Assembly (NCBI GenBank): GCA_963822305.1
Contig: CAWGHF010000026.1
Span: 11,093-75,092, forward strand
Reading direction: 5' to 3'
DNA from: an uncultured Actinomycetota bacterium
GTDB taxonomy: Bacteria; Actinomycetota; Actinomycetes; Mycobacteriales; Mycobacteriaceae
DNA length: 64,000 nt
This document shows, in pieces, positions 44,589-63,193 of this stretch. A model generated the notes under the pieces. The model was not told the origin of the DNA and searched no databases. It worked only from the letters and a program-made list of their open reading frames with translations. The position numbers and the translations under genes were made by a program. Positions within the stretch are counted from its first letter, which is position 1. Each line of letters begins with the position of its first letter.

Positions 44589-44857
44589 CGTCCGGCCTCC
44601 GCGGCTGTCAGGCGGGTGATCCAGATCACATTCAGAATATGCCTGGACAAGACCGCGCGTCCACCGTTCACCGGCGCCGAGACACCGTTGACAGGTGTCC
44701 CGGGACGCCGTTCTAAATGGGGGTCTGTTTTCGGGGAGTTTTCCGCATTTGACAGGACATCCCGACGTCGGCTCGCGATCTGGCAAAAGGCGGCTCCCGG
44801 TACCCGCAAATGGGGTTACTGTCGAGTAACAGCTCCGCCCACGTTGGGAGGTCCGCC

Positions 44858-46755
44858 ATGGCCGTCAGCGAACAAGTCAGCGAGCAACAGGCCAGGCAGG
44901 TCGCCGAACAGGCGCGAGAGACGCAGTGGCGCCAGCCGAGTTTCGGCAAGGAATTGTTCCTCGGCCGTTTGCGGTTGGACCTCGTTCATCCGCACCCCAG
45001 CGGGTCGGCGGAGGCTGCGAAGCGTGGCGAGGCGTTCCTGGACAAGCTGCGCGATTTCTGCGAGTCGCAGATCGATGCCGCTGTGATCGAACGCGACGCG
45101 CAGATTCCCGACAAGGTCGTCCGCGGCTTGAAGGAACTCGGCGCGTTCGGCATGAAGATTGCCACCGAGTACGGCGGGGTCGGGCTGTCACAGGTGTACT
45201 ACAACAAGGCGCTCGCACTCGTCGGCTCGGTGCATCCGTCATTGGGCGCGTTGCTTTCCGCGCACCAATCGATCGGCGTACCGCAGCCGATCACATATGT
45301 TCGGCACCGAGGAACAGAAGCGAACATGGCTGCCCCGGTGTACCCAGGAGATCAGCGCCTTCCTGCTCACCGAGCCGGACGTGGGCAGCGATCCAGCCCG
45401 GCTGCACGCCACCGCCACACCCTGATGGCGATGACTATGTGCTGAACGGTGTCAAGCTGTGGACCACCAACGGCGTGATCGCCGACCTGCTGGTGGTGAT
45501 GGCCCAGGTACCCAAGAGCGAGGGGCACCGGGGTGGGATCTCCGCATTCGTGGTGGAAGCGGACGCACCGGGCATCGTGGTGGAGAACCGCAACGCGTTC
45601 ATGGGGTTGCGCGGCATCGAAAACGGGCTCACCCGGTTGACCAACGTGCGGGTACCGGCCGCGAACCGGATCGGCCGGGAAGGCGACGGGCTGCGGATCG
45701 CACTGTCCACGCTGAACGTGGGGCGGTTGTCGCTGCCGGCGGTGTGTACCGGAGTCGATGAAATGGTGTTTGAAGATCGCCAGGGAGTGGTCTCGAGAGC
45801 GGGTGCAATGGGGCCGGCCGCTCGGCGAGCACGAAGCGGTGGCTGGAAAGGTCGCGTTCATCGCGGCCACCACCTACGGGCTGGAGGCGATGCTCGAGCT
45901 TGCCAGTGAGTTGGCCGACGCCGGCCAAACCGACATACGGATCGAGGCAGCGCTGGCCAAGCTCTACGGCTCGGAGATGGCCTGGCTGGTCGCCGACGAA
46001 CTGGTACAGATTCGCGGCGGACGCGGCTTTGAGACCGCCGAGTCGCTTGGCCGCCCGCGGCGAGCGAGGGGTGCCCGCCGAGCAGGTGCTGCGCGACTTG
46101 CGCATCAACCGGATCTTCGAAGGCTCCACCGAGATCATGCATCTGATGATCGCCCGCGAGGCGGTAGACGCGCATCTGTCGGTGGCCGGCGACATCATCG
46201 ACCCGCAGGCCGACACCCGGCGCAAGGTGAAGGCGGCCGCGAAGGCCGGCAAGTTCTATGCCCGCTGGCTGCCGACCTTGGTAACCGGCAAGGGCCAGCT
46301 TCCCACGTCGTTCACCGAGTTCGGACCGCTGGCGGGGCATCTGCGCTATGTCGAACGGGCCAGCCGCCGGCTTGGCGCGAAGCACCTTCTACGGGATGTC
46401 GCGGTGGCAGGGCAGGCTCGAGCACAAGCAGCGGTTCCTGGCGAGGATCGTGGATATCGGCGCGGAGCTGTTCGCGATGACCGCCGCCTGCGTCCGGGCA
46501 CAGCGTGACCGGGCGGACCATACCGCCGTCGAGCTCGCCGACGCGTTCTGCCGTCAGGCGCGGGTTCGGGCCGAGCAGCGGTTCGACCAGCTTTGGCATA
46601 ACTGCGACGACTCCGACGTCACGCTGGCTCGGGGCGTGTTGAGCGATCGCTACACCTGGCTCGAAGAGGGGATCCTCGACCCGTCGATCGAGGGGCCGTG
46701 GATCGCTCAGGAGGGCGGCGTCGACAAATCCGATGTGCACCGTTCCATACGCTGA
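44858..46755 (+). CDS. Long acyl-CoA dehydrogenase (FadE10-like); about 5 frameshifts
   Basis: [50 protein letters not shown] in successive frames. Confidence 0.82.
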
Positions 46756-47542: not shown

Positions 47543-47755
47543 TGTGATGTGTCAAGACATAGGAATAGCTCTGAACCTGCGTTTCGGGTTCAGGGCTTTT
47601 TCTTTGGGCGGCCGCAGGGCACGCCGCGGGGTTGATAGTCCCTGGTCGGGTCGATGGTTAGCTCGCGGATCAGTTCGCCGGTGGCGGCGTTGATGATCCG
47701 GACGTCGAAGTCTTGAACGAGCATCAAAACGTGGGCTTCTGGACGGTGGGTGAGC
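47543..47755 (-). mobile_element. IS481-family remnant
   Basis: TGTGATGTGTCAAGACATAGGAATAGCTCTG end and transposase C-terminus, homologous to 8878-9135. Confidence 0.8.
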
Positions 47756-48413
47756 CGGACTCGGCGCTATCCGGAGAAGATCTAGAGCCCTCCCCGATAT
47801 CACCCAGATAATCGCGCAGTGTCACGCGTCCGTCGGCCAGTTGGTAGGTGACACCGGCGATCGCCAACGTCCCCGCGTTCAGCCGCTCGGCGACCGCGGT
47901 TGATCGGCTGCGGAGCTGCGCGGCGGTCTCACTGACATGCCGGGCTTCGAACTCGTCGACGCGGGTCAGACCGTCGCGGCGGCCCAACAGAATGGACGGG
48001 ATCACCCGTTCCACAATGTCGCGCACATACCCGCCGGGCACCACGCCGTCGTCGAGCGCCGACAGGGTGGCCTTCACCGCGCCGCAGCTGTCGTGGCCCA
48101 GCACTACGATCAGCGGCACGTTGAGCACTGTGACGGCGTACTCGATCGAGCCCAGCACCGCCAAGCCCATGACATGCCCGGCGGTGCGCACCACGGTCAT
48201 GTCGCCCAGTCCCTGATCGAAGATGATCTCGGCCGCGACCCTACTGTCGGCGCAGCCGAACACCACGGCGTTGGGTGTCTGCGCGGCGGTTAGGCTGGCC
48301 CGGCACTCGATGCCCTGGCTGGGATGCTGCGGCCTGCCGGCGACGAATCGCTCGTTACCCTCCTTGAGTGCCTTCCACGCCTTCCAGGCCTTCGCCGGAT
48401 TCGAGTTAGGCAT
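47724..48413 (-). CDS. Beta-carbonic anhydrase (CanB/Rv3588c-like), read-through tail into the IS481 remnant
   Basis: LKEGNERF, GCADSRV, LGHDSCGAV zinc ligands. Confidence 0.9.
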   Translation of the reverse strand: MPNSNPAKAWKAWKALKEGNERFVAGRPQHPSQGIECRASLTAAQTPNAVVFGCADSRVAAEIIFDQGLGDMTVVRTAGHVMGLAVLGSIEYAVTVLNVPLIVVLGHDSCGAVKATLSALDDGVVPGGYVRDIVERVIPSILLGRRDGLTRVDEFEARHVSETAAQLRSRSTAVAERLNAGTLAIAGVTYQLADGRVTLRDYLGDIGEGSRSSPDSAESGSPTVQKPTF

Positions 48414-48519
48414 GGTGGACATTGTCCCCCGGCCGGGTGGCGAAGTGCGATGACGGTTGCGGCCGAACTGCTCGGCGGGTATGACATCGCGCGGCGCGAC
48501 CACCGCGGGCTCGTTGTCT

Positions 48520-48670
48520 CCCGCGACGGCACCGTCATTGGCATGCGTCCCGGCGACACCGTGTGGACGCCGCCCGGTGACGAGCGTTGGCATGCCGCCA
48601 CCGCCGACAACATGATGTGCCATCTCGCCATGCTCGAAGGCGTCCCCGGCGGGGATGGAACCGGAACCCG
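48520..48670 (+). pseudogene. Cupin-domain fragment
   Basis: MRPGDTVWTPPGDERWHAATADNMMCHLAMLEG (cupin motif 2); no N-terminus. Confidence 0.6.
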
Positions 48671-48914
48671 TCACCCCACCGTTAGAGGATCTGCACGTCG
48701 GCCCCGCTCCCGACTGACATGCAGATGGCCTGCATCCCGGAGCGGCCTCGGCGCACGACCGGATCATGCTCCTAGCTCCTGCCCTTCTGGCTCGATGACG
48801 AAGCAGAAGGGCGGCAGGGAAGTGCTGCAATGACGAGACGGCCGGCCATCCACCAACAGCCCACGTGAGGAATATCCAGCGCGCGGGGGCGTCGATCCTG
48901 AACGCCCAATGGAC

Positions 48915-51900
48915 TCAGTGACCGAGCGCATCCGCTGTTCGGGCCATCCCACGCTCCACAGCCGCGATGATGCGCGGGCGCAATTCGGCCGCCGGAATGA
49001 TCGAGTGGACCGAACCCACCCGGCGGGCACGCTCCACGTTGTGCACAGCTTCAAATTCCGCTGCCACCTCGCCGAGCTTGTCCGAACGTACGGCAGCCCG
49101 GGCGGCGGCGAGCTTGACCCGCAGGCTGGCGCTCGCCGAGTCGTCGGTGCAAGCGGCGAGCAACGCTTCGACCTCGCGCACGGCCGGGTCTGCTGCGGTA
49201 CGTGCATTCACGTCCCGGGTGAACACCACCGCTGCGGCGGGTGCACCGCCGATGACCGAGGAGAACGATCCCTCGACTGCAAGCACTTCCATGTTCTCGT
49301 TCAGCGCGTTGGAGAACACCACGAAAGCGCCGCCGTGATAGCGCGAGACCACGCAGAACACGATCGGTCCGTCGAAGTTGACGATGGCTCGGCCGATTTC
49401 GGCGCCGTTCTCGAGCTGGATGTTGCGGAGGGACTCAGGTGAACCGTCGAAGCCCGACAGGTTCGCCAGCACCACAAGGGGTCGGTTACCGCTTGCGGCG
49501 TTGATGGCGCGCGCGGTCTTCTTCGACGACTGCGGAAATAACGTCCCCGACGTCCATTGGTCCGGCCCGTCGGCCGGGACCCATCCCTTACGCGGCACGA
49601 CCCGCGATTCAATGCCGATGACGCACACCGGAATTCCGGCCATGTGCGCATCGAACACCACTGAGGTGTCGGCGTCGGCCATGTCGGCCCACCGCTCGAG
49701 CACCGGATGATCCTGGTCGACCACTGAGCGCATGACCGTCCGAATGTCGAACGGCTTCTTGCGGTCTTTGTTGGTGCTCGCCGAGAAGATGTCGCCGACA
49801 GTGGTGAATGTCGCTGGACGGATGTACGTGCGGGAAGGTGCGAACGTCGCGGTCCACCGGGTCGGAAGTGTCGGCGCGGCGCGGAAAGCGTTCTCCCGGT
49901 GCGACATAGGCGTGTTCGTAGTGTGCGAAGAGGATGTCGCACGCTATCTGCAGGTTCGGCGCCCAGTACTGAGCTTGACCGTTGCGTCCCATCACGCGGT
50001 CATAGCCGCCGATGCCGAAGTTGTCCTCCGCCGAGACCCCACCGGAGTAATCGAGGGACTGCTTGCCGGTGAGCACCATCGCGCTGTCGGGGGTCATGAC
50101 CAGAATGCCCTTGGTGTGCATCAGCATCGTCGCTTCGGCATTCCAGTACGGCTGCGCGCCGACGTTGATGCCCGCGACGATGACGTTGATCTCACCGCCA
50201 TTCTGGGTGAACGTGATGATCCGGCGAAGAGCGCGGGACACCCAGTCCATGTTCTCGGTTCCACTATCCATCGAAATGGTGGCCCCGGAGGATAACGCGA
50301 ACCACTCGACCGGTACCGACAGCTTTTCCGCTAAATCGATCGCCGCGACTACGCGAGCGCATTCCGCTTCGGCCACCGTGCCCAGCGCTTTCGTCGGGTC
50401 ACCGAACAGGGCGATACGCGTCATTCCCTCGGGGTAGCGAGTGGTCGGTAGTGACACTTGGCCGACGATGATGCCGGCCGTGTTGCGTCCGTACGGACGA
50501 TCCACGGGTACAAACGCGCCAGCCGCGTCGAAGTCGTATTCGACGAAGCTGCCCTTATCGCCGGTGAGAAGTGGGATCAGCTCATACGGGTAGACCGTGC
50601 TGCGGGCTTGTGAGCGCTGCACCTTCTGTGTGTACTCGTCGAGTGGGCGCAACGGCTCGGTCGGGGGCGCCGTCACATTCGCGACGATTCCGGCGCCCGC
50701 GCTGTATGCGAAGCGAATCGCCACGCGGCTGGGCTGCGACGTCCGCTCGTCGTTGATGCCTGCCAGGATCGTGATGTCTTCTATCCCGGCGTTGACCGTC
50801 AGCGGTGCTATCCGTCGCGCGATCGCCCGCAGTCGGTCTGCGGGGATGTCGAGCACCGGCCACACGTACAGCACGACCCGGTTGGCGTCGAGCCGCTTCT
50901 TGCCCCGCTCGGCCTGCGCACGGCGGATGCCGTCGAGACACGCGGCGAGGGTGCGCTCAATGGCCGGGACCGCGACCACCTCGCCGTCCTCGTTCAGTTG
51001 GGTTGTCACGTCGCGAACCTCGGCCAGCGCTACGAGGCGCTCATCGGACTGATTCTCTCTGGCCACCACGTGGAAGAGGTACGTCCCTGCGGCGGCGGGT
51101 AAGCGAGTGCCGTCGAAGTTCTTGAGCCGCCACAGATCGAGGCGTTGCCCGGTGAGCGGGTGCATGTCGCGGATCGTCAGGTCCTCCGCCACGCCCGCGC
51201 CGTCCGGACGGAACGTCACCTGATGCAGGTCGCGGCCGACGACTGTCACGGTCACGCGGCGCCACTCACTCACGCTGGGGTGCGCGGCAAGCACATCACG
51301 CAACCCGGCAGACAGTTCGTCGCCGTCGGTGGGAGCGTCCGGCCAGGACAGATAGATGTCGACAACGACGTTGTCAGCGTTGAGTCCGGCGATGGAGTCG
51401 ACCGCGCGCAGCGTTGTCGACAACCGCTCGCGGTCGGTCACAGTCGATACGAGATGTAGCCGCTTGCCTGCCAATTCGTAACTGCCGGTGACGAACTGGC
51501 CACCGTCCTGTTGGAAGGCCCTGATGTCTTCGAGCGCGCGGATCTCGTAGTACCGACGCGTGACCACCTCGAGCAGCGCGCCGGGACTGGAAATGCGCTC
51601 TGCCAGCAGGTCGATCAATAGCTCCGGCGTGGCGATAAGGGCGTCGATGCGTGCCGCGTAGTCCGGCGCGTCGGGATTGTCGGCCAGATATTGCAGGGCT
51701 TCGCGCACGCCGTCGTAGATATGCTCGCGTGCGTTGCGGATCGCCGGCTCGTCGAACAAGCGGAAGCGCAGGTTACGCGCGATGTCGCCGATCACCGGGT
51801 AACGCACCTGCGTCGCCACGATCAGCCGATCGAGGACGTCGCCCACTGCACTTGTCGAAGCGGATTCGACATCGTCGGCGTTGAGCCAGCGGCCCAGCAG

Positions 51901-54414
51901 CGCGCTGATCACCGGTACCTGGTTCTCCATACGCTGCAACGCGAGGAACAGTCGGTAGACCGCTTCTTCCAACTCCGGTCCGGGTTCGAGACTATCGACG
52001 TCGTAGTTGCGCAGCGCCTGGGCGATCTTGGTGCGAAACGCCTTCGGCAGCCCCTCCACATCGGCGTCGAGGGAATGCAGGAACGAATGGAAGTACTCGC
52101 GTGGGCTGTGGACGCTCTCATCGGAGCTCTCTTCGTCCAGCGTCGGACGGTTGCGGGAAAGCTCGCAGATGTCGGCGAAGGTGCCCAGCAGTTCGAGTTC
52201 GGCCTCGACGAGCTCTGTGTCGTCGCGCGGCAGGCGGCCACGAAGGGCGTCGTACTCCGCAAGCAGGATGCGCGCGCGGCCGGCGCTCACGTCGTAACCA
52301 GTGATCAGGGCACGCAGCTCGCCGAGCCGCGCCAACGCCTCCGCGCGCGGGTCCGCGTCCTCGTGCCTCGGTTGGCTACGGAACCGAACTCGCGGCGCGG
52401 CTTCAGCCGCCGTACTCTCGCCGAGAGGATCGAAGCGCAGCAGTGCAGCACCCGCATCGACCTGACCGTTGACGACGGCATACACCTCACGAACCCGTCC
52501 CGCGGACGGTGCGCGCACGGCGGTTTCCATCTTCATGGCTTCCAGCACCACCAGAGTGGCACCGACCTCGACCTCGTCGCCCACGGCCACCGGCAGAGCG
52601 ACGACCACGGCTGGAGACGAGGCGCGGACCAGACCGGCTTCGTCCTGGCTGATGCGGTGAGTTATGCCGTCCACCTCGACGAGGAATCCCGTGGGGCCCG
52701 CGACCGTGACGATGTGGAAGCGCCGGTCGCCAAGGATGAGGCGACTCTCGAACTCGCCAAGTCGGTCGACGTCGACGACCAATTCGCCGCTATCACCGTC
52801 GACTCGGTAGCTGCGCGGACCGATCTGTCCGACCGTGAGTTTGTATGCCTGGCCCTGGTAGCTGAGTTCAACGGTACGACCGATGGCGTGCGTGGCGCGC
52901 GGTCGACCACCGCGTGCCGAGGCCAGGAAACCGGCACGCTCGACACCCTCCTCGGCTTCGTACGCGTCGACCGCAGCCGCGATGAGCGCGATATCGGCCA
53001 TCGGGGTAGGGCCGGTCGCCGTCCCAGCGTCGGTGCGGTCAAGCCAGCCGGTGTCGGCCGAGGCGGACACGACCTCGTCACGGTCGAGGAGCTCGAGAAG
53101 GAACGACTTGTTCGTAGTCCCTCCGTCGATCACGACCGTGGTCTCACGCAGGGCAGCGCGCAGCCGTGCCAGTGCTTCGCTTCGGTCGCGGCCCCAGGCG
53201 ATGATCTTGGCGACCATCGAGTCGTAGTCGGGCGGGATGACGTCGCCTTGTGCGATGCCGGTGTCGACGCGGATGCCGGAGCCGAGTGGGAACTTCAGCA
53301 GCCGCACGGTCCCCGGCGCGGGTGCGAAGCCATTGTCGGTGTCTTCGGCGTTGAGCCGAGCCTCGACGGCGTGGCCGAACTCGGGGGGGCATTCGCCCGC
53401 GAGAACACCGCCGCTGGCCACGAATATCTGTAGCTTGACCAGGTCGATGCCGGTGGTGACCTCGGTGATCGGGTGCTCGACCTGCAGCCGGGTGTTGACC
53501 TCGAGGAATGTGAAGATCTTCTCCTCCGGCTGATACAGGTATTCGACGGTGCCCGCGCCGCGGTATCCGGCGGCGCGGACAAGTTCGGCCGACACACTGC
53601 GGAGATGGTCGGCCTGATCCTTGGTCAGGAGCGGGGAGCTGGACTCCTCAATCACCTTCTGGTTCCGGCGCTGTATGGAGCAGTCGCGCACCCCCGGCGC
53701 CCAGACATTGCCGTAGTTATCGGCGATGATCTGGACCTCGACGTGGCGGGCATCGGTGACAAGGCGCTCGAGGAACACCACCGGATCGCCAAACGAACGC
53801 TCGGCTTCGCCCTGCGTGCGCTCAAGTGCGACCTCGAGTTCGTCGGGGGCGAACACCTTGCGGATACCGCGGCCGCCGCCACCACTGCGGGCCTTAATGA
53901 TTAGCGGGTAGCCGATGGCCTCCGCGTGGCGTCGGGCGTCCTCGCGGGTCGCGACGGGGCCACCGCTCCACGGTGCGAGCGGAACGTGCACCTTCTCCGC
54001 CAGCAATTTGGCCTCGACCTTGTCGCCCAGAGCCGCCATCGCGGCGGGGGGCGGCCCGATGAACGTGAGTTCCATGCGCCCGCAGAGTTCGGCGAACGCG
54101 ATGTCTTCGGCGACGAAACCCCAGCCCACCCACACCGCGTCGGCCCTGGATTCCCGCAGAGCGCGTTCTAGCTCGGCGTGGTCGAGGTAGACGATGCCGC
54201 CCGAGGTACTGCAGAGCGTCACCGCCTCGTCAGCCTGGCGCACGAACATGGCCCGGCGCTCGGCGTCGGTATGCAGAGCAATGGTCTTTATGCCGCAGTC
54301 GTATTCGGCGTTCAATTCTCGAACGGCCCGAATCAGGCGTACCGCGGCCTCACCCCGGTTGACCACTGCAATTCGACTGGGAAACGTGACCGTCAACGGG
54401 TCGGCGTCCGACAT
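48915..54414 (-). CDS. Single-chain multidomain acyl-CoA carboxylase (BC-BCCP-central-CT, ~1830 aa); frameshift near 49811
   Basis: NRGEAA, GGGGRG, RDCSIQRRNQK, EVNTRLQVEHP (BC); EAMKM biotin Lys; ANLSGFDGS and SRYHGGAFVV (CT). Frames join at HPSSD/FTTVGDIF. Confidence 0.9.
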
Positions 54415-54727
54415 TCGCTCAGTGTATGGCGGGATGAAACCACTGAACGCACAGCTGAGCGGGTTTCCACTGAGCGGATTCGGGCACGCCCTATCTTCGC
54501 CGCCGGAGGCCAGGTATCAGAGGCGACAAGACAACTTGTTGTAGCGTTCAAAGCAGAATCAGGGCCCCTTATCGGACGCGGCTCATGTTTCGCAGAAGTC
54601 GTGGTCGGTCGGTGCACTCGGCCCGGTCGACCGGACATTCACCTGTCGCCGACTTCGCCACCGCAGACTGGTTCGCACAGGAGCCGGCGAGGAACTCGTT
54701 ACTTCGCGCCGAACCCCAGGAGGGCCC

Positions 54728-56452
54728 ATGACGTCATCAGATGTGCCAGCACGCTCGACTTCGCCTGCAGTGCAAGATCTGCTGGGGATCGCCGAGAATG
54801 TCACCTTCGCGGCCGATCCGGCCGGCCTGATGAGGGACCTCCTGGCCGCCGCCGGGATGACGCTGAGAAATCCGGCCGGAATTATCGCTGCCAATGCACG
54901 CCTGTTCTGGGGTTATCTGGGGGCCTACCGGGCTGCCGCCGAACGCGCGATCGGCCTTGACAATCCCGGTCCCATCGCGATCGACCGCGGCGACAAGCGC
55001 TTCGCCGATCCGGCCTATCGGGAGAATCCGGCGTACATTCTGCTGGCTCAGCAGTATTTGATGTTCAGCCGGTTTGTCGACGACCTGCTCGACGCCGCGG
55101 AAGTGAGGGGAACGAGAGAAGCGAAGGCCCGCTTCGCCGCCACGTTTCTTATCGGGGCGCTCGCCCCGACGAACACTCTGGCCGGTAACCCCGCGGCGGT
55201 CCGCAAGGCATTCGACACCGGCGGCAAGAGCATCGGCAGGGGTCTCAAGAACTGGGTGCACGATCTTCGCCGCAACGGTGGATGGCCGTCGCAAGTCGAC
55301 AGCTCCGGATTCGAGGTCGGCGTCAATATGGCCGCCACGCCGGGAAGCGTCGTCTACCGCAGCGACCTCATCGAGTTAATCCAGTACTCGCCACAGACTC
55401 CGAATACGCACGCGGCTCCGTTGCTCTTCTGCCCGCCCTGGATCAATAAGTTCTACATCATGGATCTGGCACCAGGGAAAAGTCTTATCGAGTGGGCCGT
55501 GCAACACGGACATACGTGTTTTGCGATCAGTTACCGCAATCCCGATAAGTCGATGAGCGGACTCGGATTCCGCGACTACCTCTTCCAAGGACCGCTGGAC
55601 GCCGTGGGAGTCGTGAAAGATATCACCGGTGCACCCGCGGTGAACACCGTATCGGTTTGCCTGGGTGGGACGCTCACCGCACTGGGTCTGGCCCTTAACG
55701 CGGCACGCGGTGACAACTCCATCAAATCGGCGACATTCCTCAACACCCATACCGATTTCACCCAGCCGGGCTTGCTCGGCACGTTCACCGACGAGGCGAC
55801 GGTCGTGGGACTTGAGAAGGAGATGGAGAAGACGGGCTTCCTGGACTCGGCGACCATGGCACGAACCTTCAGTGCGTTGCGGCCAAACGACCTGATCTTC
55901 CAATACCTGGTGAACAATTGGCTGCTCGGAAACAACCCACCGGCGTTCGACCTGCTGGCCTGGAACGAAGACTCGACCCGTATGCCGGCCCGGATGCATT
56001 CGGAGTATTTGCGCTCGTGCTATCTGCGCAACGAATTTGCCCGAGGTGAATTCGAAATCGACGGCGACCGTCTAGACCCGGGCCTTGTCGGCATCGACAG
56101 TTACGTGCTGTCGGCTGTGGGTGACCATGTGGTGCCGTGGACATCGGGCTATAAGACCACACAGCTGCTAGGTGGGGAGAGCAGGTTTGTTCTGAGTTCT
56201 TCCGGCCATATAGCCGGCATCGTCAATCCGCCCAATCCGAAGGCCAAGCATTGGGTGAACGACAGCCTTCCCGCCGACCCGTTGGAATGGAAGGCGGACG
56301 CACAATTAGTGGACGCCACCTGGTGGCAGGACTGGACTGCGTGGATCGCCGAACGGGGCGGGGAAATGATTCCCGCGCCCGATCGCCTGGGCAACGACGA
56401 CTATCCGCCGATTGAGAAAGCTCCCGGCCGTTACGTGCGGGCCACCGCATGA
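54728..56452 (+). CDS. phaC: Class I polyhydroxyalkanoate synthase
   Basis: PhaC_N region (PTN...NP), FEVGVNMAATPG, PPWINKFYIMDL, lipase box SVCLGG (Cys), GDHVVPW (Asp), SSGHIAG (His). Confidence 0.93.
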   Translation: MTSSDVPARSTSPAVQDLLGIAENVTFAADPAGLMRDLLAAAGMTLRNPAGIIAANARLFWGYLGAYRAAAERAIGLDNPGPIAIDRGDKRFADPAYRENPAYILLAQQYLMFSRFVDDLLDAAEVRGTREAKARFAATFLIGALAPTNTLAGNPAAVRKAFDTGGKSIGRGLKNWVHDLRRNGGWPSQVDSSGFEVGVNMAATPGSVVYRSDLIELIQYSPQTPNTHAAPLLFCPPWINKFYIMDLAPGKSLIEWAVQHGHTCFAISYRNPDKSMSGLGFRDYLFQGPLDAVGVVKDITGAPAVNTVSVCLGGTLTALGLALNAARGDNSIKSATFLNTHTDFTQPGLLGTFTDEATVVGLEKEMEKTGFLDSATMARTFSALRPNDLIFQYLVNNWLLGNNPPAFDLLAWNEDSTRMPARMHSEYLRSCYLRNEFARGEFEIDGDRLDPGLVGIDSYVLSAVGDHVVPWTSGYKTTQLLGGESRFVLSSSGHIAGIVNPPNPKAKHWVNDSLPADPLEWKADAQLVDATWWQDWTAWIAERGGEMIPAPDRLGNDDYPPIEKAPGRYVRATA

Positions 56453-56748
56453 GCCACTTGCCGCGCGGACCGTCGACTTGGGCACATTGATCATTGCTGT
56501 CATCCGGTCGTCGACGCGGCGCCCGGGCAGAACCGAGGTTGTTAGGTACCGGTTGGCCCGCTCGACGATCTGTTGTCCCACCACAGTTCCTCAACAAATG
56601 GCTGCGCCAGCACCACCGCCCGCGATGAACCGGGAACTCGCCTGCTGGCTGAATCCGACCGCATTCTGCCCAGCGGAAATAATCGATCGCACAGATTTCT
56701 GTCGGCGAGAATGACCTCATACATATTGTGCGTGGACAAGGGGTCAGC

Positions 56749-57591
56749 ATGACGGCGACGACTGCGGTTGAGGAGATCGGCGAGCCCCGGTCGGACGCGG
56801 CCCGGGGAGCCAAGCTCCGTGGGCGCGTTGCTTTCGTGACGGGTGGCACCCGTGGAATCGGTGCGGCGATCAGTAAGAGCCTGGTCGGTCAGGGTGCAAC
56901 GGTAGCCGCGGGATACGGCAGGAACACCGAACAGGCGCAGAAGTTCCTCGCTGAGTTGTCGGAGGGCAGTGACGGCGCCGAGGTCAGCGTCCATCAGGGC
57001 GATGTCGCGAGTGCGGGTGACTGTCGACGAACGATCCAGGAGGTCATCGACCTCCACGGCCGCCTGGACATCCTGATCAACAACGCCGGCATCACCATCG
57101 ACAAGACGGTGGCCAACATGTCCGAAGACGAATGGAACAAGGTCATCGGAGTCAACCTGTCCGGGGCGTTCTTTCTTGCCCAGGCCGCGTTGGCGCACAT
57201 GCTCGAGCGCGGCAGCGGCCGGATCGTCATGGTCTCCTCGGTGATCGGTGAGACGGGTGCCATCGGTCAGGCGAATTATGCGGCCTCCAAGGCCGGGCTG
57301 TTCGGCCTGACGAAGACACTCGCGCGCGAGGCGTGTTTCCAGATGGGGCGCACGGGCAAGCCGCAAGACGGTGTCGGCGTCACAATCAACGCAATCACAC
57401 CCGGGTTCGTGGCGACCGAGATGCTCGAGAGCATCCCCGACAAGGTCCTAGACCGCATCAAGGGCACCATCCCCATGGGCCGGCTGGCGCGGCCGTGGGA
57501 GGTCGCTCGAGTCGTGCACTTCTTGGCCGCGGACGCCTCGGGGTACATCACTGGACAGGTTTGGGGGGTCAACGGCGGTCTGGACATGTGA
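56749..57591 (+). CDS. phaB: Acetoacetyl-CoA / 3-oxoacyl reductase (SDR)
   Basis: TGGTRGIG, NNAGIT, GQANYAASK, PGFVATEM, NGGLDM; adjacent to phaC. Confidence 0.8.
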   Translation: MTATTAVEEIGEPRSDAARGAKLRGRVAFVTGGTRGIGAAISKSLVGQGATVAAGYGRNTEQAQKFLAELSEGSDGAEVSVHQGDVASAGDCRRTIQEVIDLHGRLDILINNAGITIDKTVANMSEDEWNKVIGVNLSGAFFLAQAALAHMLERGSGRIVMVSSVIGETGAIGQANYAASKAGLFGLTKTLAREACFQMGRTGKPQDGVGVTINAITPGFVATEMLESIPDKVLDRIKGTIPMGRLARPWEVARVVHFLAADASGYITGQVWGVNGGLDM

Positions 57592-57667
57592 TGGTCGGTG
57601 ACGGCCCGCCTCCATCGCCAAGCGCTATATCAACCTCGCAAGCGTCTCATCGAAAAGGTGATCGGCA

Positions 57668-59618
57668 ATGCACGCCTTTGAACTCAATAAGCATAATAAG
57701 ATCGTCTTTCCGTCCAATTGCTTTCCGGATCTCGATTTCTCCACTCTCGAAAGTCTCGAGCAGCTTGATGCCGTCGTCCGGCGGGACTTCGATTCCAAGG
57801 CGCCAACCGGGACCGACATCCTTGAGCAGATAAAGACCGGCGCCTACCAAACCAAGTTCGAGTTGATGCGAGATATGGCGCTCAACCTGTTCTGGGCCAA
57901 TCGTTTCAAGATAACGATGTACGACGTGCAGCCAACCCGCTGGGCCGACGTGCCTCGTCGCCGCGACGACCTCTTCGTGCCCATCCTAACGCCGTGGGAA
58001 GATCGCGAAACGAAGGTGTCCGCGGTGATGTCGGCGTATCCGAATCTGCCGGAGCAGTGGGATGCCGAGGTCGAGGACAGCATCTTCGAGGTCCTCTTCG
58101 ACGTGTTCGGACATCGCCGAAACCACGCGACCAAACTGTCGCCTGTCGTACCCACGGTTGCCGATCTGCTGACCAACCCCGGTAATCAAACGCTGCGACT
58201 GAATCGCTACGACCCTGACTTCCGCCGGTACAGCTACGCCGAGATCATCGACTGCAACGAGGATGTGGCCGAGCTGGAAGCGCTACGCCGCTGGTCGATG
58301 GTGTTGCACAACCAGTATCCGTGGGATCGCGGCGAGGCCGCCCTGACCCCTGTCGGGGAATTGCGCGACGACGACTATGTGGTGGTGTTTTGTCCGCGTG
58401 ATCGAGAGGTCCAGCTTTTCCTGTCCCGCGTCGCCTCGGGGCACGCTCCGAAGAAGGTCCGCGTCGGTCGTCCCCGAGGTTCACGCGCCCGTTCGCCCGT
58501 ACCCTGCCATCGACGTACGCAACGACTTGGCAGTACAACCGCGTATCGAGGCCATGGCCGCGGCGCAAGGTGATCAGGTGTGCACCAACGAGGACCTCAT
58601 CCGCAACAGCGCCTACAACTGGTCCCCCATGTCTGCCGACGAGATCAGTGCCAAGACCGGCATCGAGCAGCGGCGTTACACCTCGGGCAGCCTCGAGGAT
58701 CTCGCGTTGCGGGCCGCCCGGTCGGCGCTCGCTCACGCCCAGGTGGGTCCAGAGCAGATCGGGGCGGTCATCGTGTGCACCTGCACCAGCTCTCGGCTGA
58801 TACCGTCGATCGCCACCTGGATTTCCGGCGCGTTGGGCATCGGGCAGACGCACTGCTCGTTTGACCTCGTCGCCGCGTGCGCGGGCCTCAGCTATGGGCT
58901 CGCCGAGGCGACGAGAATTCTCCAACTGGTCCGGCGCCCAGTCCTTCTCGTGTGCGCGGAAAAGTTCTCCGACAAGATCGGGAACGTCCGGCCATCGCGG
59001 ATGATTTTCGGGGACGGCGCGTCCGCCATTGTCCTGGGCGTCGCACCCGAGGGTTCGCCGCCGGACATCGAGTACATGCAGACGTATGCCAGCGGTCCGA
59101 CAAGTCAGGTCAATTCGATCCTGTGGCCCAACCCCGCGTTCGGCAACAACATCACGGTCTTCGGTCCTGAGGTGAAGGCGCTCGCCGGGCGCTATCTGCG
59201 GCAGATGCTGGATGACCTCAGGGCCCTGCCCGACCCGGATGGAGTCGCTGAGTCACTGCTGGCCAGCATCGAATTAATTGTCCCGCATCAGGCGAACAAG
59301 ACCATGGTGATCGATCTGGCGACCGGCGCCGGTCTGTCCCCAGATCAGCTGTATTTCAACATCGAACGGATGGGGAACGCCTCCGCGGCGAGCATTCCGC
59401 TGGCAATCAACGACGCGGTCCGCGACGGAGTGATCACCAAGCCGATGCGAATTTTCGCCCCGGGTTTCGGTGCCGGCGCGGTTGCTGGCTACGCGGTGCT
59501 GCGAATCGATCCTGCCGTTATAGCGCCTGACGACCAGGCGACATCCACTGGCGAGTCGGCCGCAGTCCCTGAGTCGGTCACAACAACTGCCGGGGTCGAT
59601 ATGGCCCTTGCGCTGTGA
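57668..59618 (+). CDS. KAS III (FabH/NphT7-like) with ~270-aa unrecognised N-terminal domain; frameshift near 58460
   Basis: KTGIEQRR, DLVAACAG (Cys), FGDGA, PHQAN (His), GNASAASIP (Asn), GFGAG. Confidence 0.85.
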
Positions 59619-59861
59619 TAGCCGCCGCTCTTCGGCTGGCGGGATGGTTCGACCCCTAAGGGTTGGACCACGCGCGTGTCCTCGACCTCTTGACAACCAC
59701 TCCGCTAGAACATGTCGACACGGGCGGCCGGTAGGTCTGACCGGGATGACGGCGCCCGTCGTCAACTAACTCGACACATCGACGTCAACCGGCCGCCTGA
59801 GACCGGGGCGCCGAACACGTCAACACCAGCCAAGTTTTATTTCCCGACTTGAGGAGCCTCA

Positions 59862-59900
59862 ATGACCCAGGCATGGTTCATCACCGGCACTTCCGGCGGG
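59862..59900 (+). pseudogene. SDR N-terminal stub (MTQAWFITGTSGG)
   Basis: GAGGAG RBS plus a classic SDR start that stops abruptly before the patatin ATG. Confidence 0.5.
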
Positions 59901-59908
59901 ACGGCGCG

Positions 59909-60958
59909 ATGACCGGCCGCGCTCGACGCCATCCGGGCCAGACCCGCGGCCTCGTCGGGCCGCGCGCCGAAAAGACGGTGTCGCTGGCCCTGCAGGGCGG
60001 CGGGGCCCACGGCGCCTTCACGTGGGGCGTGCTCGACGCCCTCCTCGAAGACGGGCGCCTCGCCGTCGAAGCGATCACCGGGGCGAGCGCCGGCGCCATG
60101 AACGCCGTCGTGATGGTGGAGGGCTGGCTCGACGGCGGGATCGACGGCGCGCGCAGCTCACTCGAAACCTTCTGGCGCCGGGCCAGCCTCGACGGGTCCC
60201 TTTCCCCCACCCAGCGCGCGCTTCTCGGCCTGATGCTGGGCTTCTGGAGCAAGGCCTGGACGGACGTCATCGCCCCAAGCTTCAGTCCCTACCGGACGAA
60301 CCCGCTCAACATCAATCCGTTGCGAGACGCGATCGACGCGCTCATCGACTTCGATCGCGTGCGCGCCTGCACGGATGTCGAGCTCTTCCTCAGCGCGACC
60401 AATGTCTGGACCGGCAAGGTTGCGATCTTCAAGACACAGGAACTCACGGCCGATCACCTCATGGCCTCCGGCTGCCTGCCCACGGTCTTTCAGGCGGTGG
60501 AAATCGACGGCGTGCCCTATTGGGACGGCGGCTATATGGCCAATCCGGCACTGTTCCCGCTCTTCGACGAGACGATGACCGACGACATCCTGCTCGTGCA
60601 GATCAACCCGCTGGAGCGCCGGCAGACGCCGCGCACGGTGCACGAAATCCACAACCGGCTGAACGAGATCAGCTTCAACAGCACTCTCGTGCGCGAATTG
60701 CGGGCCGTGGCGTTTGTCACCCAGCTGATCGAAGAGGGAAGACTCTCGCCCGACGAATACAAGCACGTCCACTTGCACCGGATCGACGCGAGCGGCGTGC
60801 TCGACGATCACGAGGCCTCTTCGAAGCGCAACGCGGAATGGGATTACTTCGTCCAGCTTCGCGATGCCGGGCGGCGGACCGCTCAATCCTGGCTCGCGGC
60901 CCACTACGAGGCGATCGGGGTGCACGGCACACTCGATCTGCAGGACGCTCGGTTGTGA
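59909..60958 (+). CDS. Patatin-like hydrolase (candidate PHA depolymerase)
   Basis: LQGGGAHG oxyanion motif, GASAG Ser, WDGGY Asp. Confidence 0.9.
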   Translation: MTGRARRHPGQTRGLVGPRAEKTVSLALQGGGAHGAFTWGVLDALLEDGRLAVEAITGASAGAMNAVVMVEGWLDGGIDGARSSLETFWRRASLDGSLSPTQRALLGLMLGFWSKAWTDVIAPSFSPYRTNPLNINPLRDAIDALIDFDRVRACTDVELFLSATNVWTGKVAIFKTQELTADHLMASGCLPTVFQAVEIDGVPYWDGGYMANPALFPLFDETMTDDILLVQINPLERRQTPRTVHEIHNRLNEISFNSTLVRELRAVAFVTQLIEEGRLSPDEYKHVHLHRIDASGVLDDHEASSKRNAEWDYFVQLRDAGRRTAQSWLAAHYEAIGVHGTLDLQDARL

Positions 60959-61317: not shown

Positions 61318-63193
61318 GTGTCCGTCCAGATCTCCGCCGACCCTGCCGATATAGAGCAACGCCTTTCGCGGTGGCGTTCGGCCGTTGCCGGGGTGCTGGC
61401 CAAGAGCACCCGGCGTGACCCGTCAGAATTGCCCGCCGAGCCCGAGCGCCTGCTGGATTCGCCCACCTACGAAGGCTTTCCGGTACGCCCGCTGTACACC
61501 AGCTTGGACACGCTGGCCGAGCCGCCGCTGCCCGGCAGTGGCCCTTCGTGCGGGGCGGCGACGCGCTGCGCGACGTCAAGTCGGGATGGAAGGTGGCCGA
61601 AGGGCTTTCCCGCCAATGGGTCCGCCGCAGTCGGCGAGGACAACGGCGCGGTGCTGGTCGCGCTGACCGAAGGCGTGAGCGCGCTGGTGCTGCGGGTCGG
61701 CGAGCCCGGCGGTGTCGCTGCCGGCCGACCTGGACCGGCTGCTCGAGGGCGTCTTCCTCGACCTGGTGCCGGTGGTACTGGACGCGGGCACCGATTACGT
61801 TGCCGCCGCCGACGCGGTGCTGGCGCTGCTGACCGAGCTTGGACGACGACCAGCGCGTCGCGGCTGTCGGTCGACCTGGGCGCCGACCCGTTGACCGCGC
61901 CGCTGGGCGCGCGGTCCGCGCCGGAGCGTGGCCGACGTCGTCGCGACCGCGGCGAAAGTGGGCGGCTACGACGGACGGCGTGCGCGCGATCACCGTTGAC
62001 GGCCCGGCGTTCCACAACCACGGTGCGAGCGCGTCGTGGGAGCTGGCCGGCAGCGTGGCAGCCGGGGTGGCCTACCTGCGGCTGCTCAGCGGCGGCGGCC
62101 TTGGTGTTCGGGATGGGTTGCGGCAGATCAGCTTTCGATTCGCCGCGGACGACGACCAGTTCATGACCATTGCGAAGCTGCGTGCGGCACGCCAACTTTG
62201 GGCGCGGGTTGCCGAGGTTGTCGGGGAACCCGACAGCGGCGCGCGCGACCGTGCATGCGCGTCACGTCGTTGCCGATGATGGCCGAGCGCGACCCGTGGG
62301 TGAACATGCTGCGCACTACGCTGGCGGCTTTCGGGGCGGGTGTCGGTGGTGCTGATACCGTGCTCGTCCAGCCTTTCGACGTCGCGATCCCCGGCGGATT
62401 CCCGGGGATCGCGGCCCGCTTCTCGCGGCGGATCGCCCGTAACACCCAGCTGTTGCTGCTGGAGGAATCCCATGTCGGGCGGGTGCTCGATCCCGCGGCC
62501 GGGTCGTGGTTCGTCGACGACCTCACCGAGCGGCTCGCCGAGCAGGCGTGGACGCATTTCCGGGAGATCGAGCAGCGGGGCGGCTTCGTCGAGGCCGGGG
62601 AGTTCGTCGCCGAGCAGATCGCCGAGGTGCGCGACCGCCGGATCGACGACATCGCGCACCGGGGCACGGCGCTGACCGGTGTCAACGAATACCCAAACCT
62701 GGCCGAACCGCCGCTACCCCCGAACGACCTGAAAGCGACTGTCGAGAGTTACGCGGCCGGGTTTGAAGCGCTGCGGGACCGCTCGGATGCCTACCTCGAG
62801 CGGACCGGGTCGCGCCCGCAGGTGCTGCTGCTGCCGCTGGGTCCGCTGGCCGAGCACAACATCCGCGCGACGTTCGCGGCGAACCTGCTGGCCTCAGGCG
62901 GTATCGAGGCGGCCAGCCCGGGAACCGTGACCGCCGACGGTGTCGCGCAGGCGATTTCGGTCGCTGACTCTCCGAGCGTCGCGGTCATCTGCGGTACCGA
63001 TGCCCGCTACGGGACCGAGGCGGCCGGCGTGGTCGAGGCGGCCCGCGCCGCCGGGCTGTCGCGGGTCTATCTGGCCGGCCCGGAGAAGGCGGTGGCGGAT
63101 GTCGACCAGGGCGGCCGCCCCGACGACTACCTGACCGCTAAGATCGACGCGGTCAGCGCCCTGTCGACTCTGCTCACCCGATTGGGGGCATAG
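61318..63193 (+). CDS. mutA: Methylmalonyl-CoA mutase small subunit; several frameshifts
   Basis: WRSAVAGVLAK...PTYEG..VRPLY, FMTIAKLRAARQLW, DPWVNMLR, RRIARNTQLLLLEES, LTGVNEYPN. Confidence 0.88.

What the first reader, a model, noticed from the sequence alone, without database searches (positions are those of the whole stretch)
57668..58470. Unrecognised ~270-aa domain fused in front of the KAS III
Seen: MHAFELNKHNKIVFPSN...LNLFWANRF...HRRNHAT...QYPW precedes the FabH fold. The two parts are separated by a single frameshift at ~58460 with no clear independent start for the KAS half. Ordinary FabH/NphT7 enzymes are about 330 aa. Inference: a regulatory, granule-binding or substrate-channelling domain that may define a PHA-linked KAS III family.
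Basis: partly seen in the sequence, partly recalled or inferred. Interest (0 to 1): 0.58.

Follow-up and report, generated by a model that had tools for sequence, protein, structure and literature searches.

The report
Orphan domain fused to KAS III
The two overlapping reading frames are one gene for a 650-residue enzyme, in which a widespread but undescribed 260-residue domain sits in front of a FabH-like condensing enzyme in bioplastic (PHA) storage gene clusters; in this assembly the gene is split by one extra base.

Summary
An ORF starting at 57668 encodes about 263 residues with no Pfam, NCBIfam or PDB sequence match. It runs into a KAS III (FabH-like) reading frame after a shift of one base at about 58456-58470.

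The fusion is the normal state. Of 80 related genome loci, 74 carry one uninterrupted ORF of 638-656 aa. More than 3000 database proteins of about 650 aa have the same architecture. The window has one extra base compared with intact relatives. Apart from that base the gene looks fully functional: all 184 highly conserved positions are kept, and substitutions on its lineage follow a purifying pattern.

The assembly carries other frameshifts, including one in the essential leuS gene. I therefore favour an assembly error (about 60%) over a very recent real mutation (about 35%).

The N-domain gives a confident AlphaFold model (pLDDT 91) with no convincing structural relative (best Z 5.3).

The neighbouring genes are conserved: an SDR reductase, a single-chain acetyl-CoA carboxylase, PhaC and an alpha/beta hydrolase. 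This points to a thiolase-free, malonyl-CoA-driven route to PHA monomers. What the N-domain does is unknown. The full-length model has pTM 0.84, so my best guess is a module packed against the KAS III, acting in substrate handling or partner docking.

This scan has already met the same family in other genomes.

The parts
57655..57660 (+). Shine-Dalgarno-like AAGGTG, 7 nt upstream of the ATG at 57668
   Evidence: read directly from the sequence
57668..58459 (+). Coding part for the orphan N-terminal domain (about 260 aa; frame with start mod 3 = 2). As an ORF it runs on out of frame to the stop at 58573.
   Evidence: AF2 pLDDT 90.8, pTM 0.86; no Pfam, NCBIfam or PDB match
58456..58470 (+). Frameshift site: one extra base compared with intact orthologs, inside the poorly conserved Ala/Pro/Lys linker
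   Evidence: DNA alignment; tblastn frames
58467..59618 (+). Conserved pre-KAS segment (VRPYPAIDVR..PRIEA) and KAS III domain, in the frame with start mod 3 = 0. Cys codon 58878-58880, His codon 59286-59288, Asn codon 59376-59378. Stop at 59616-59618.
   Evidence: Pfam PF08545 and PF08541; PDB FabH matches with aligned motifs; coordinates
56728..57591 (+). SDR (FabG/PhaB-like ketoacyl reductase) directly upstream. The same neighbour is found in 50 of 56 related loci.
54728..56452 (+). PHA synthase PhaC (PhaC_N plus alpha/beta hydrolase)
48915..54414 (-). Single-chain acetyl-CoA carboxylase (BC-BCCP-ACC_central-CT), itself split by one extra base at 49807/49808
47724..48830 (-). Beta-carbonic anhydrase downstream of the carboxylase
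59849..60958 (+). Patatin-like hydrolase downstream of the KAS III gene

Best explanation
Positions 57668-59618 are a single gene for a two-domain protein of about 650 aa. An orphan alpha/beta domain of about 260 aa is joined by a short Ala/Pro/Lys linker to a catalytically complete KAS III. In this assembly one extra base at about 58462 interrupts the gene, more likely a consensus error than a mutation.

Inferred mechanism: the KAS III domain loads a short acyl-CoA on its Cys. It then condenses that acyl group decarboxylatively with malonyl-CoA, which the neighbouring single-chain acetyl-CoA carboxylase makes with bicarbonate from the adjacent carbonic anhydrase. The product is a 3-ketoacyl-CoA. 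The adjacent SDR reduces it to (R)-3-hydroxyacyl-CoA, and PhaC polymerises that. This would be a natural, ATP-driven, thiolase-free entry into PHA that works like NphT7.

The N-domain is inferred to be a non-catalytic module packed against the KAS III. It would help bind the CoA-linked extender or dock a pathway partner (ACC, SDR or PhaC).

Shown: the fusion, its conservation, the intact catalytic triad, the conserved neighbourhood and the confident, unmatched fold. Inferred: the substrates, the pathway and the role of the N-domain.
For: Fusion is the norm. 74 of 80 genome loci have one ORF of 638-656 aa, and in 77 of 79 testable loci the N-domain and the KAS lie in the same frame. More than 3000 proteins of about 650 aa carry the N-domain plus PF08545 and PF08541. 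Full-length representatives were confirmed by Pfam. Natural N-domain-KAS-SDR triple fusions exist (P0012, 881 aa).

The catalytic Cys-His-Asn motifs align with FabH structures.

Neighbourhood in 56 loci with flanks: SDR 50, ACC 44, PhaC 34, alpha/beta hydrolase 34.

The N-domain model has pLDDT 90.8. The full-length ortholog model has pTM 0.84 with only the linker at low confidence. The N-domain holds a cluster of invariant Arg and aromatic residues: Y60, W76, R79, R91, D94, R208.

Frameshift as an artefact or very recent event: 184 of 184 positions conserved at >=95% are kept. Nonsynonymous:synonymous changes are 4:26 on the window lineage against 13:78 on L002. The essential single-copy leuS is also split, and ACC, an acyl-CoA dehydrogenase and a methylmalonyl-CoA mutase gene are broken in the same window.
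Against: There is no biochemical evidence for malonyl-CoA rather than malonyl-ACP as extender, nor for the primer chain length. The residue equivalent to E. coli FabH F87 is Ile, as in octanoyl-CoA-using V. cholerae FabH2, so longer primers are possible.

PhaC is missing within 8 kb in 22 of 56 loci.

The packing of the N-domain rests on one pTM value; I could not inspect coordinates or PAE.

Nine long housekeeping genes are intact, while the last 20 kb of the window holds at least 7 frameshifts. Uniform random error therefore does not explain the pattern, and real pseudogenisation of accessory genes remains plausible. The two inserted bases I examined are not in homopolymers.
Confidence: 0.6

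Rival explanations
1. The frameshift is real. The gene, and the carboxylase next to it, are recently inactivated pseudogenes, so the PHA module is decaying in this organism.
For: Both ACC and the N-domain-KAS gene carry a +1 insertion outside homopolymers. Frameshifts are far denser in the window's accessory genes (at least 7 in 20 kb) than in about 30 kb of housekeeping genes, where there is one. Non-essential UvrA paralogs are also split. Other notes on this window report nested IS elements, which fits a genome that is accumulating lesions.
Against: There is no sign of relaxed selection: all 184 conserved positions are kept and the N:S ratio equals that of an intact relative. The essential leuS gene is split, which shows that the assembly itself contains indel errors. 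Other MAGs show breaks at different spots in the same linker (L014 and L025; P0001).
Confidence: 0.35
2. The two halves are expressed as separate proteins, or are joined by programmed +1 ribosomal frameshifting, as a regulated feature.
For: Several relatives also have broken frames in the linker.
Against: 77 of 79 related loci are in frame. The breaks sit at different positions and in both directions (+1 and -1). There is no conserved slippery motif. The KAS half has no start with a Shine-Dalgarno sequence that keeps its first beta-strand.
Confidence: 0.03
3. The N-domain is itself an enzyme or a small-molecule sensor, for example a CoA or acyl-CoA sensing regulatory domain that takes over the CoA-inhibition control normally exerted on the PhaA thiolase. 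It would not be a passive docking module.
For: It is a compact, confidently folded domain with invariant Arg, Asp, Glu, Tyr and Trp residues concentrated at positions 54-94 and 136-208. It is strictly coupled to KAS III.
Against: It shows no similarity to any known catalytic or ligand-binding fold. No conserved Cys, Ser or His nucleophile appears among the invariant columns.
Confidence: 0.25

Closest known systems
FabH / KAS III (E. coli FabH 1hnj; Vibrio cholerae FabH2 4wzu/4x0o; M. tuberculosis FabH 1hzp)
   Same: Thiolase-fold condensing domain with PF08545 and PF08541 and the Cys-His-Asn triad. About 29% identity and TM 0.80-0.90 (normalised by target length) to solved FabH structures. It has Ile at the E. 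coli F87 position, as FabH2 does.
   Different: It carries an extra, conserved N-terminal domain of about 260 aa that is absent from every solved KAS III. It scores below the NCBIfam FabH cut-offs (183.8 against 249). It is an accessory paralog among six KAS III-like genes in this genome. It lies with PhaC, an SDR and ACC rather than with fab genes. The equivalent of the E. coli ACP-docking residue R249 is Thr.
NphT7 acetoacetyl-CoA synthase (Streptomyces sp. CL190, EC 2.3.1.194)
   Same: The proposed chemistry is the same: a KAS III-type enzyme condensing acetyl-CoA with malonyl-CoA, which bypasses the thiolase. NphT7 has been used in engineered PHB pathways (PMC11539682 and other papers found).
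   Different: From my own knowledge, NphT7 is a single-domain protein of about 330 aa in a mevalonate cluster.
PhaA beta-ketothiolase of the canonical phaCAB pathway
   Same: It occupies the first-step position next to the reductase and the synthase in a PHA cluster.
   Different: The chemistry differs: decarboxylative and irreversible, at the cost of ATP spent by ACC, rather than a reversible Claisen condensation. The enzyme subfamily also differs.
Multidomain actinobacterial acetyl-CoA carboxylase (Saccharopolyspora erythraea, PMC6491548)
   Same: The neighbouring gene has the same single-chain BC-BCCP-central-CT layout.
   Different: That paper assigns its enzyme to fatty acid synthesis and mentions no KAS III or PHA neighbours. 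Here ACC lies next to the N-domain-KAS gene in 44 of 56 loci.

Membership tests
KAS III (FabH-like thiolase superfamily) | ACP_syn_III and ACP_syn_III_C domains above Pfam gathering scores | tested here: met
   PF08541 at 70 bits (cut-off 26.6) and PF08545 at 41.2 bits (cut-off 24)
KAS III (FabH-like thiolase superfamily) | Cys-His-Asn catalytic triad | tested here: met
   AACAG, PHQAN and GNASAAS align with the catalytic motifs of 4wzu, 4ryb and 4ylt. They are conserved in 42 homologs.
Housekeeping FabH (NCBIfam TIGR00747 / PRK09352) | Score above the curated cut-off | tested here: not met
   183.8 bits against 249, and 157.2 bits against 292.1
NphT7-type acetoacetyl-CoA synthase | Uses malonyl-CoA, not malonyl-ACP, with acetyl-CoA to give acetoacetyl-CoA | not testable with these tools
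   This needs an enzyme assay. Only the context (ACC, SDR, PhaC) suggests it.
NphT7-type acetoacetyl-CoA synthase | Sequence clustering with NphT7 | not tested
   No NphT7 sequence or model was available in the tools used.
Any described domain family, for the N-terminal 260 aa | Significant match by sequence, profile or structure | tested here: inconclusive
   Pfam and NCBIfam gave none at E<=0.1. PDB phmmer and a PDB profile search gave none. Best Foldseek E-value against PDB was 0.9. Best VIA-align Z was 5.3, to generic helical segments. The ESM Atlas gave nothing usable.

The most novel reading that the evidence does not exclude
The N-domain is a new fold that converts a FabH-type enzyme into a dedicated malonyl-CoA-dependent 3-ketoacyl-CoA synthase. 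It would do so by binding the CoA extender or by physically coupling the enzyme to the single-chain ACC. This would define a natural, widespread, thiolase-independent, ATP-driven PHA pathway in Actinomycetota.
Probability: 0.3. Interest if true: 0.75.

Novelty: new variant of a known kind. Interest (0 to 1): 0.52.

Why it matters
If the reading is right, many soil actinobacteria make PHA precursors by an irreversible carboxylase-plus-KAS III route instead of the textbook thiolase. Metabolic engineers built this design artificially with NphT7. The orphan domain is present in at least 575 species genomes and in thousands of metagenome proteins. It would then be a handle on how the route is organised or regulated, and possibly a new protein fold. 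For this particular genome, the practical point is that the split is a single-base lesion, so the gene should be annotated as one gene: either frameshifted or mis-assembled.

Tried and rejected
I used the search for related loci instead.
- The first N-domain alignment (A1) was too noisy for a locus scan, because several short database 'homologs' are themselves frameshifted. The scan was redone with A3.
- None of 24 same-genus and 16 same-order genomes sampled had the N-domain, so it is patchy within the genus.
- Foldseek against PDB, VIA-align wide, the PDB profile search and two ESM Atlas look-ups gave no lead on the N-domain.
- Foldseek with the full-length model matched only the KAS half.
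- I looked for genuine stand-alone N-domain proteins. The 279 short hits are contig-truncated or frameshifted copies of the fused gene, with no sign of a separate family.
- Four literature searches found only engineered NphT7/PHB work and no description of this fusion or cluster. A fifth search failed on a format limit.
- Programmed frameshifting was considered and rejected, because the breaks are not conserved in position or direction.
- A uniform random-error model was rejected as the only explanation, because nine long housekeeping genes are intact.

Full report
OBSERVATION

The + strand holds an ORF at 57668-58573 (301 aa) with an ATG start and an AAGGTG 7 nt upstream. It overlaps an ORF in the next frame, 58377-59618 (413 aa). 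It has no Pfam or NCBIfam match at E<=0.1 and no PDB sequence match. The second ORF carries ACP_syn_III and ACP_syn_III_C, and its FabH fold begins at about 58540. Third-position GC switches from the first frame to the second at about 58380-58460.

ONE GENE OR TWO

An exhaustive HMMER search with the N-terminal 263 aa found 353 cluster representatives. The full-length ones are 622-678 aa and contain the KAS III domains after the N-domain. One of 881 aa adds a C-terminal SDR.

A word-indexed search restricted to the N-domain returned more than 3000 proteins, almost all of about 650 aa with PF08545 and PF08541. Where sources name them, the name is simply 'ketoacyl-ACP synthase III'.

A scan of one genome per species found 575 loci. 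They lie in Mycobacterium MAGs, Mycolicibacterium hodleri, Mycobacterium sp. SM1, Millisia, Geodermatophilus, Modestobacter, Blastococcus, Nocardioidaceae and others. Among the best 80 loci, 74 have a single uninterrupted ORF of 638-656 aa. In 77 of 79 testable loci the N-domain and the KAS are in the same frame.

The 279 short 'stand-alone' database proteins are contig-truncated or frameshifted copies. The fusion is therefore the native architecture.

THE FRAMESHIFT

Aligned with intact relatives, the window has one extra base in AAGAAGGTCCGCGTCG|GTCGTCCCC, at 58456-58470, inside the poorly conserved linker.

The rest of the gene is pristine. All 184 positions that are >=95% conserved in 42 intact homologs are kept. 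Lineage-specific nonsynonymous:synonymous changes are 4:26, against 13:78 for the closest intact relative. The lesion is therefore either an artefact or very recent.

The same window has more broken genes:
- the neighbouring carboxylase, with one extra base at 49807/8;
- an acyl-CoA dehydrogenase spread over at least five frame pieces;
- a methylmalonyl-CoA mutase gene in two pieces.

Genome-wide, rpoB, rpoC, dnaE1, dnaE2, ileS, carB, uvrA, secA1 and secA2 are intact. The essential single-copy leuS is split at C15:626043/4, which shows that the assembly does contain indel errors. Breaks are much denser in accessory genes than in core genes, so genuine pseudogenes cannot be excluded.

My estimate is artefact about 60%, real recent frameshift about 35%, and anything programmed about 3%. 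The last is low because breaks in other genomes sit at different positions and in both directions.

THE DOMAIN

With a 32-sequence alignment, AlphaFold2 gives a confident alpha/beta model (pLDDT 90.8, pTM 0.86). Foldseek against PDB has no hit better than E=0.9. An all-against-representatives VIA-align search peaks at Z 5.3 on generic helical segments, below the background level the tool itself quotes. A PDB profile search and two ESM Atlas look-ups were empty.

Residues invariant across 42 intact homologs include P20, Y60, L66, W76, R79, P89, R91, D94, L127, E136, L206 and R208. This Arg- and aromatic-rich set would suit a phosphate- or carboxylate-bearing ligand or an interface.

A full-length model of the closest intact ortholog has pTM 0.84, with only the linker (about 257-280) at low confidence. 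This suggests the domain packs in a defined way on the KAS III. I could not inspect coordinates, so that is an inference. No solved KAS III carries such a domain.

CONTEXT AND MECHANISM

In the window the order is: carbonic anhydrase (-), single-chain BC-BCCP-central-CT carboxylase (-), then PhaC, SDR, N-domain-KAS and patatin (+).

Across 56 related loci with enough flanking sequence, an SDR is nearby in 50, the single-chain ACC in 44, PhaC in 34 and a small alpha/beta hydrolase in 34. In Geodermatophilaceae the order is SDR-ACC-[N-domain-KAS]-hydrolase, with PhaC convergent. One database protein joins the ACC carboxyltransferase end to the N-domain.

The most economical reading has four steps:
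1. ACC makes malonyl-CoA.
2. The KAS III condenses it with an acyl-CoA, as NphT7 does.
3. The SDR reduces the 3-ketoacyl-CoA.
4. PhaC polymerises the product.

The catalytic triad is intact. The E. coli F87 equivalent is Ile, as in octanoyl-CoA-using V. cholerae FabH2, so primers longer than acetyl are possible. The ACP-docking R249 equivalent is Thr. Neither observation is decisive. The genome has five other KAS III-like genes and a second PhaC, so this gene is an accessory paralog.

COMPARISON AND NOVELTY

The C-terminal half is a member of the KAS III family but scores below the housekeeping FabH cut-offs. NphT7 is the closest functional analogue, but membership could not be tested. The neighbouring carboxylase resembles the multidomain ACC of S. 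erythraea (PMC6491548), a paper that mentions no such neighbours. My literature searches found only engineered NphT7/PHB pathways.

Earlier notes of this scan describe the same two-domain family in other genomes and reached similar readings. I class the finding as a new variant of a known kind: a known enzyme class with an undescribed, widespread accessory domain in a distinctive pathway context. New in this report are the single-base cause of the split, the evidence that the gene is otherwise intact, and the assembly-quality context.

Noticed in passing
window 48915-54414 (-): The single-chain acetyl-CoA carboxylase is split into a 1601-aa piece and a 330-aa piece. The cause is one inserted base at 49807/49808 (GCGACATTCAC against GCGA-CTTCAC in relatives).
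   Followed up: yes
window 44753-46755 (+): The domains of an acyl-CoA dehydrogenase (N, M, C and the extra C-terminal domain) lie in at least five successive frame pieces, so the gene has at least four frameshifts.
   Followed up: partly
window 61833-63193 (+): A methylmalonyl-CoA mutase domain is split between two frames: profile positions 191-283 in one and 292-503 in the other.
   Followed up: partly
G000 C15:625733-628532: The essential single-copy leuS is split between two frames at 626043/4. This is evidence that the assembly contains indel errors.
   Followed up: partly
G000 C15:37307-39742 and C10:179999-182267: Two UvrA-like paralogs are each broken into several frame pieces, while the canonical uvrA (C23) is intact.
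   Followed up: no
window 54500-59700: The PhaC-SDR-KAS block has lower GC (0.58-0.64) than its flanks (about 0.70). The N-domain gene was absent from the 24 same-genus genomes sampled. Both points are compatible with horizontal acquisition of the module.
   Followed up: partly
L038:9987-10844, L030:9950-10717, L023:11754-12497: A small alpha/beta hydrolase (227-285 aa) sits between the KAS III gene and PhaC in 34 of 56 related loci. In the window a patatin-like gene occupies the downstream position instead.
   Followed up: partly
P0012 (881 aa) and P0042 (571 aa): Variant architectures occur in metagenome proteins: N-domain-KAS III-SDR in one chain, and the ACC carboxyltransferase end followed by the N-domain in one called protein. 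The second may be read-through or a calling artefact.
   Followed up: partly
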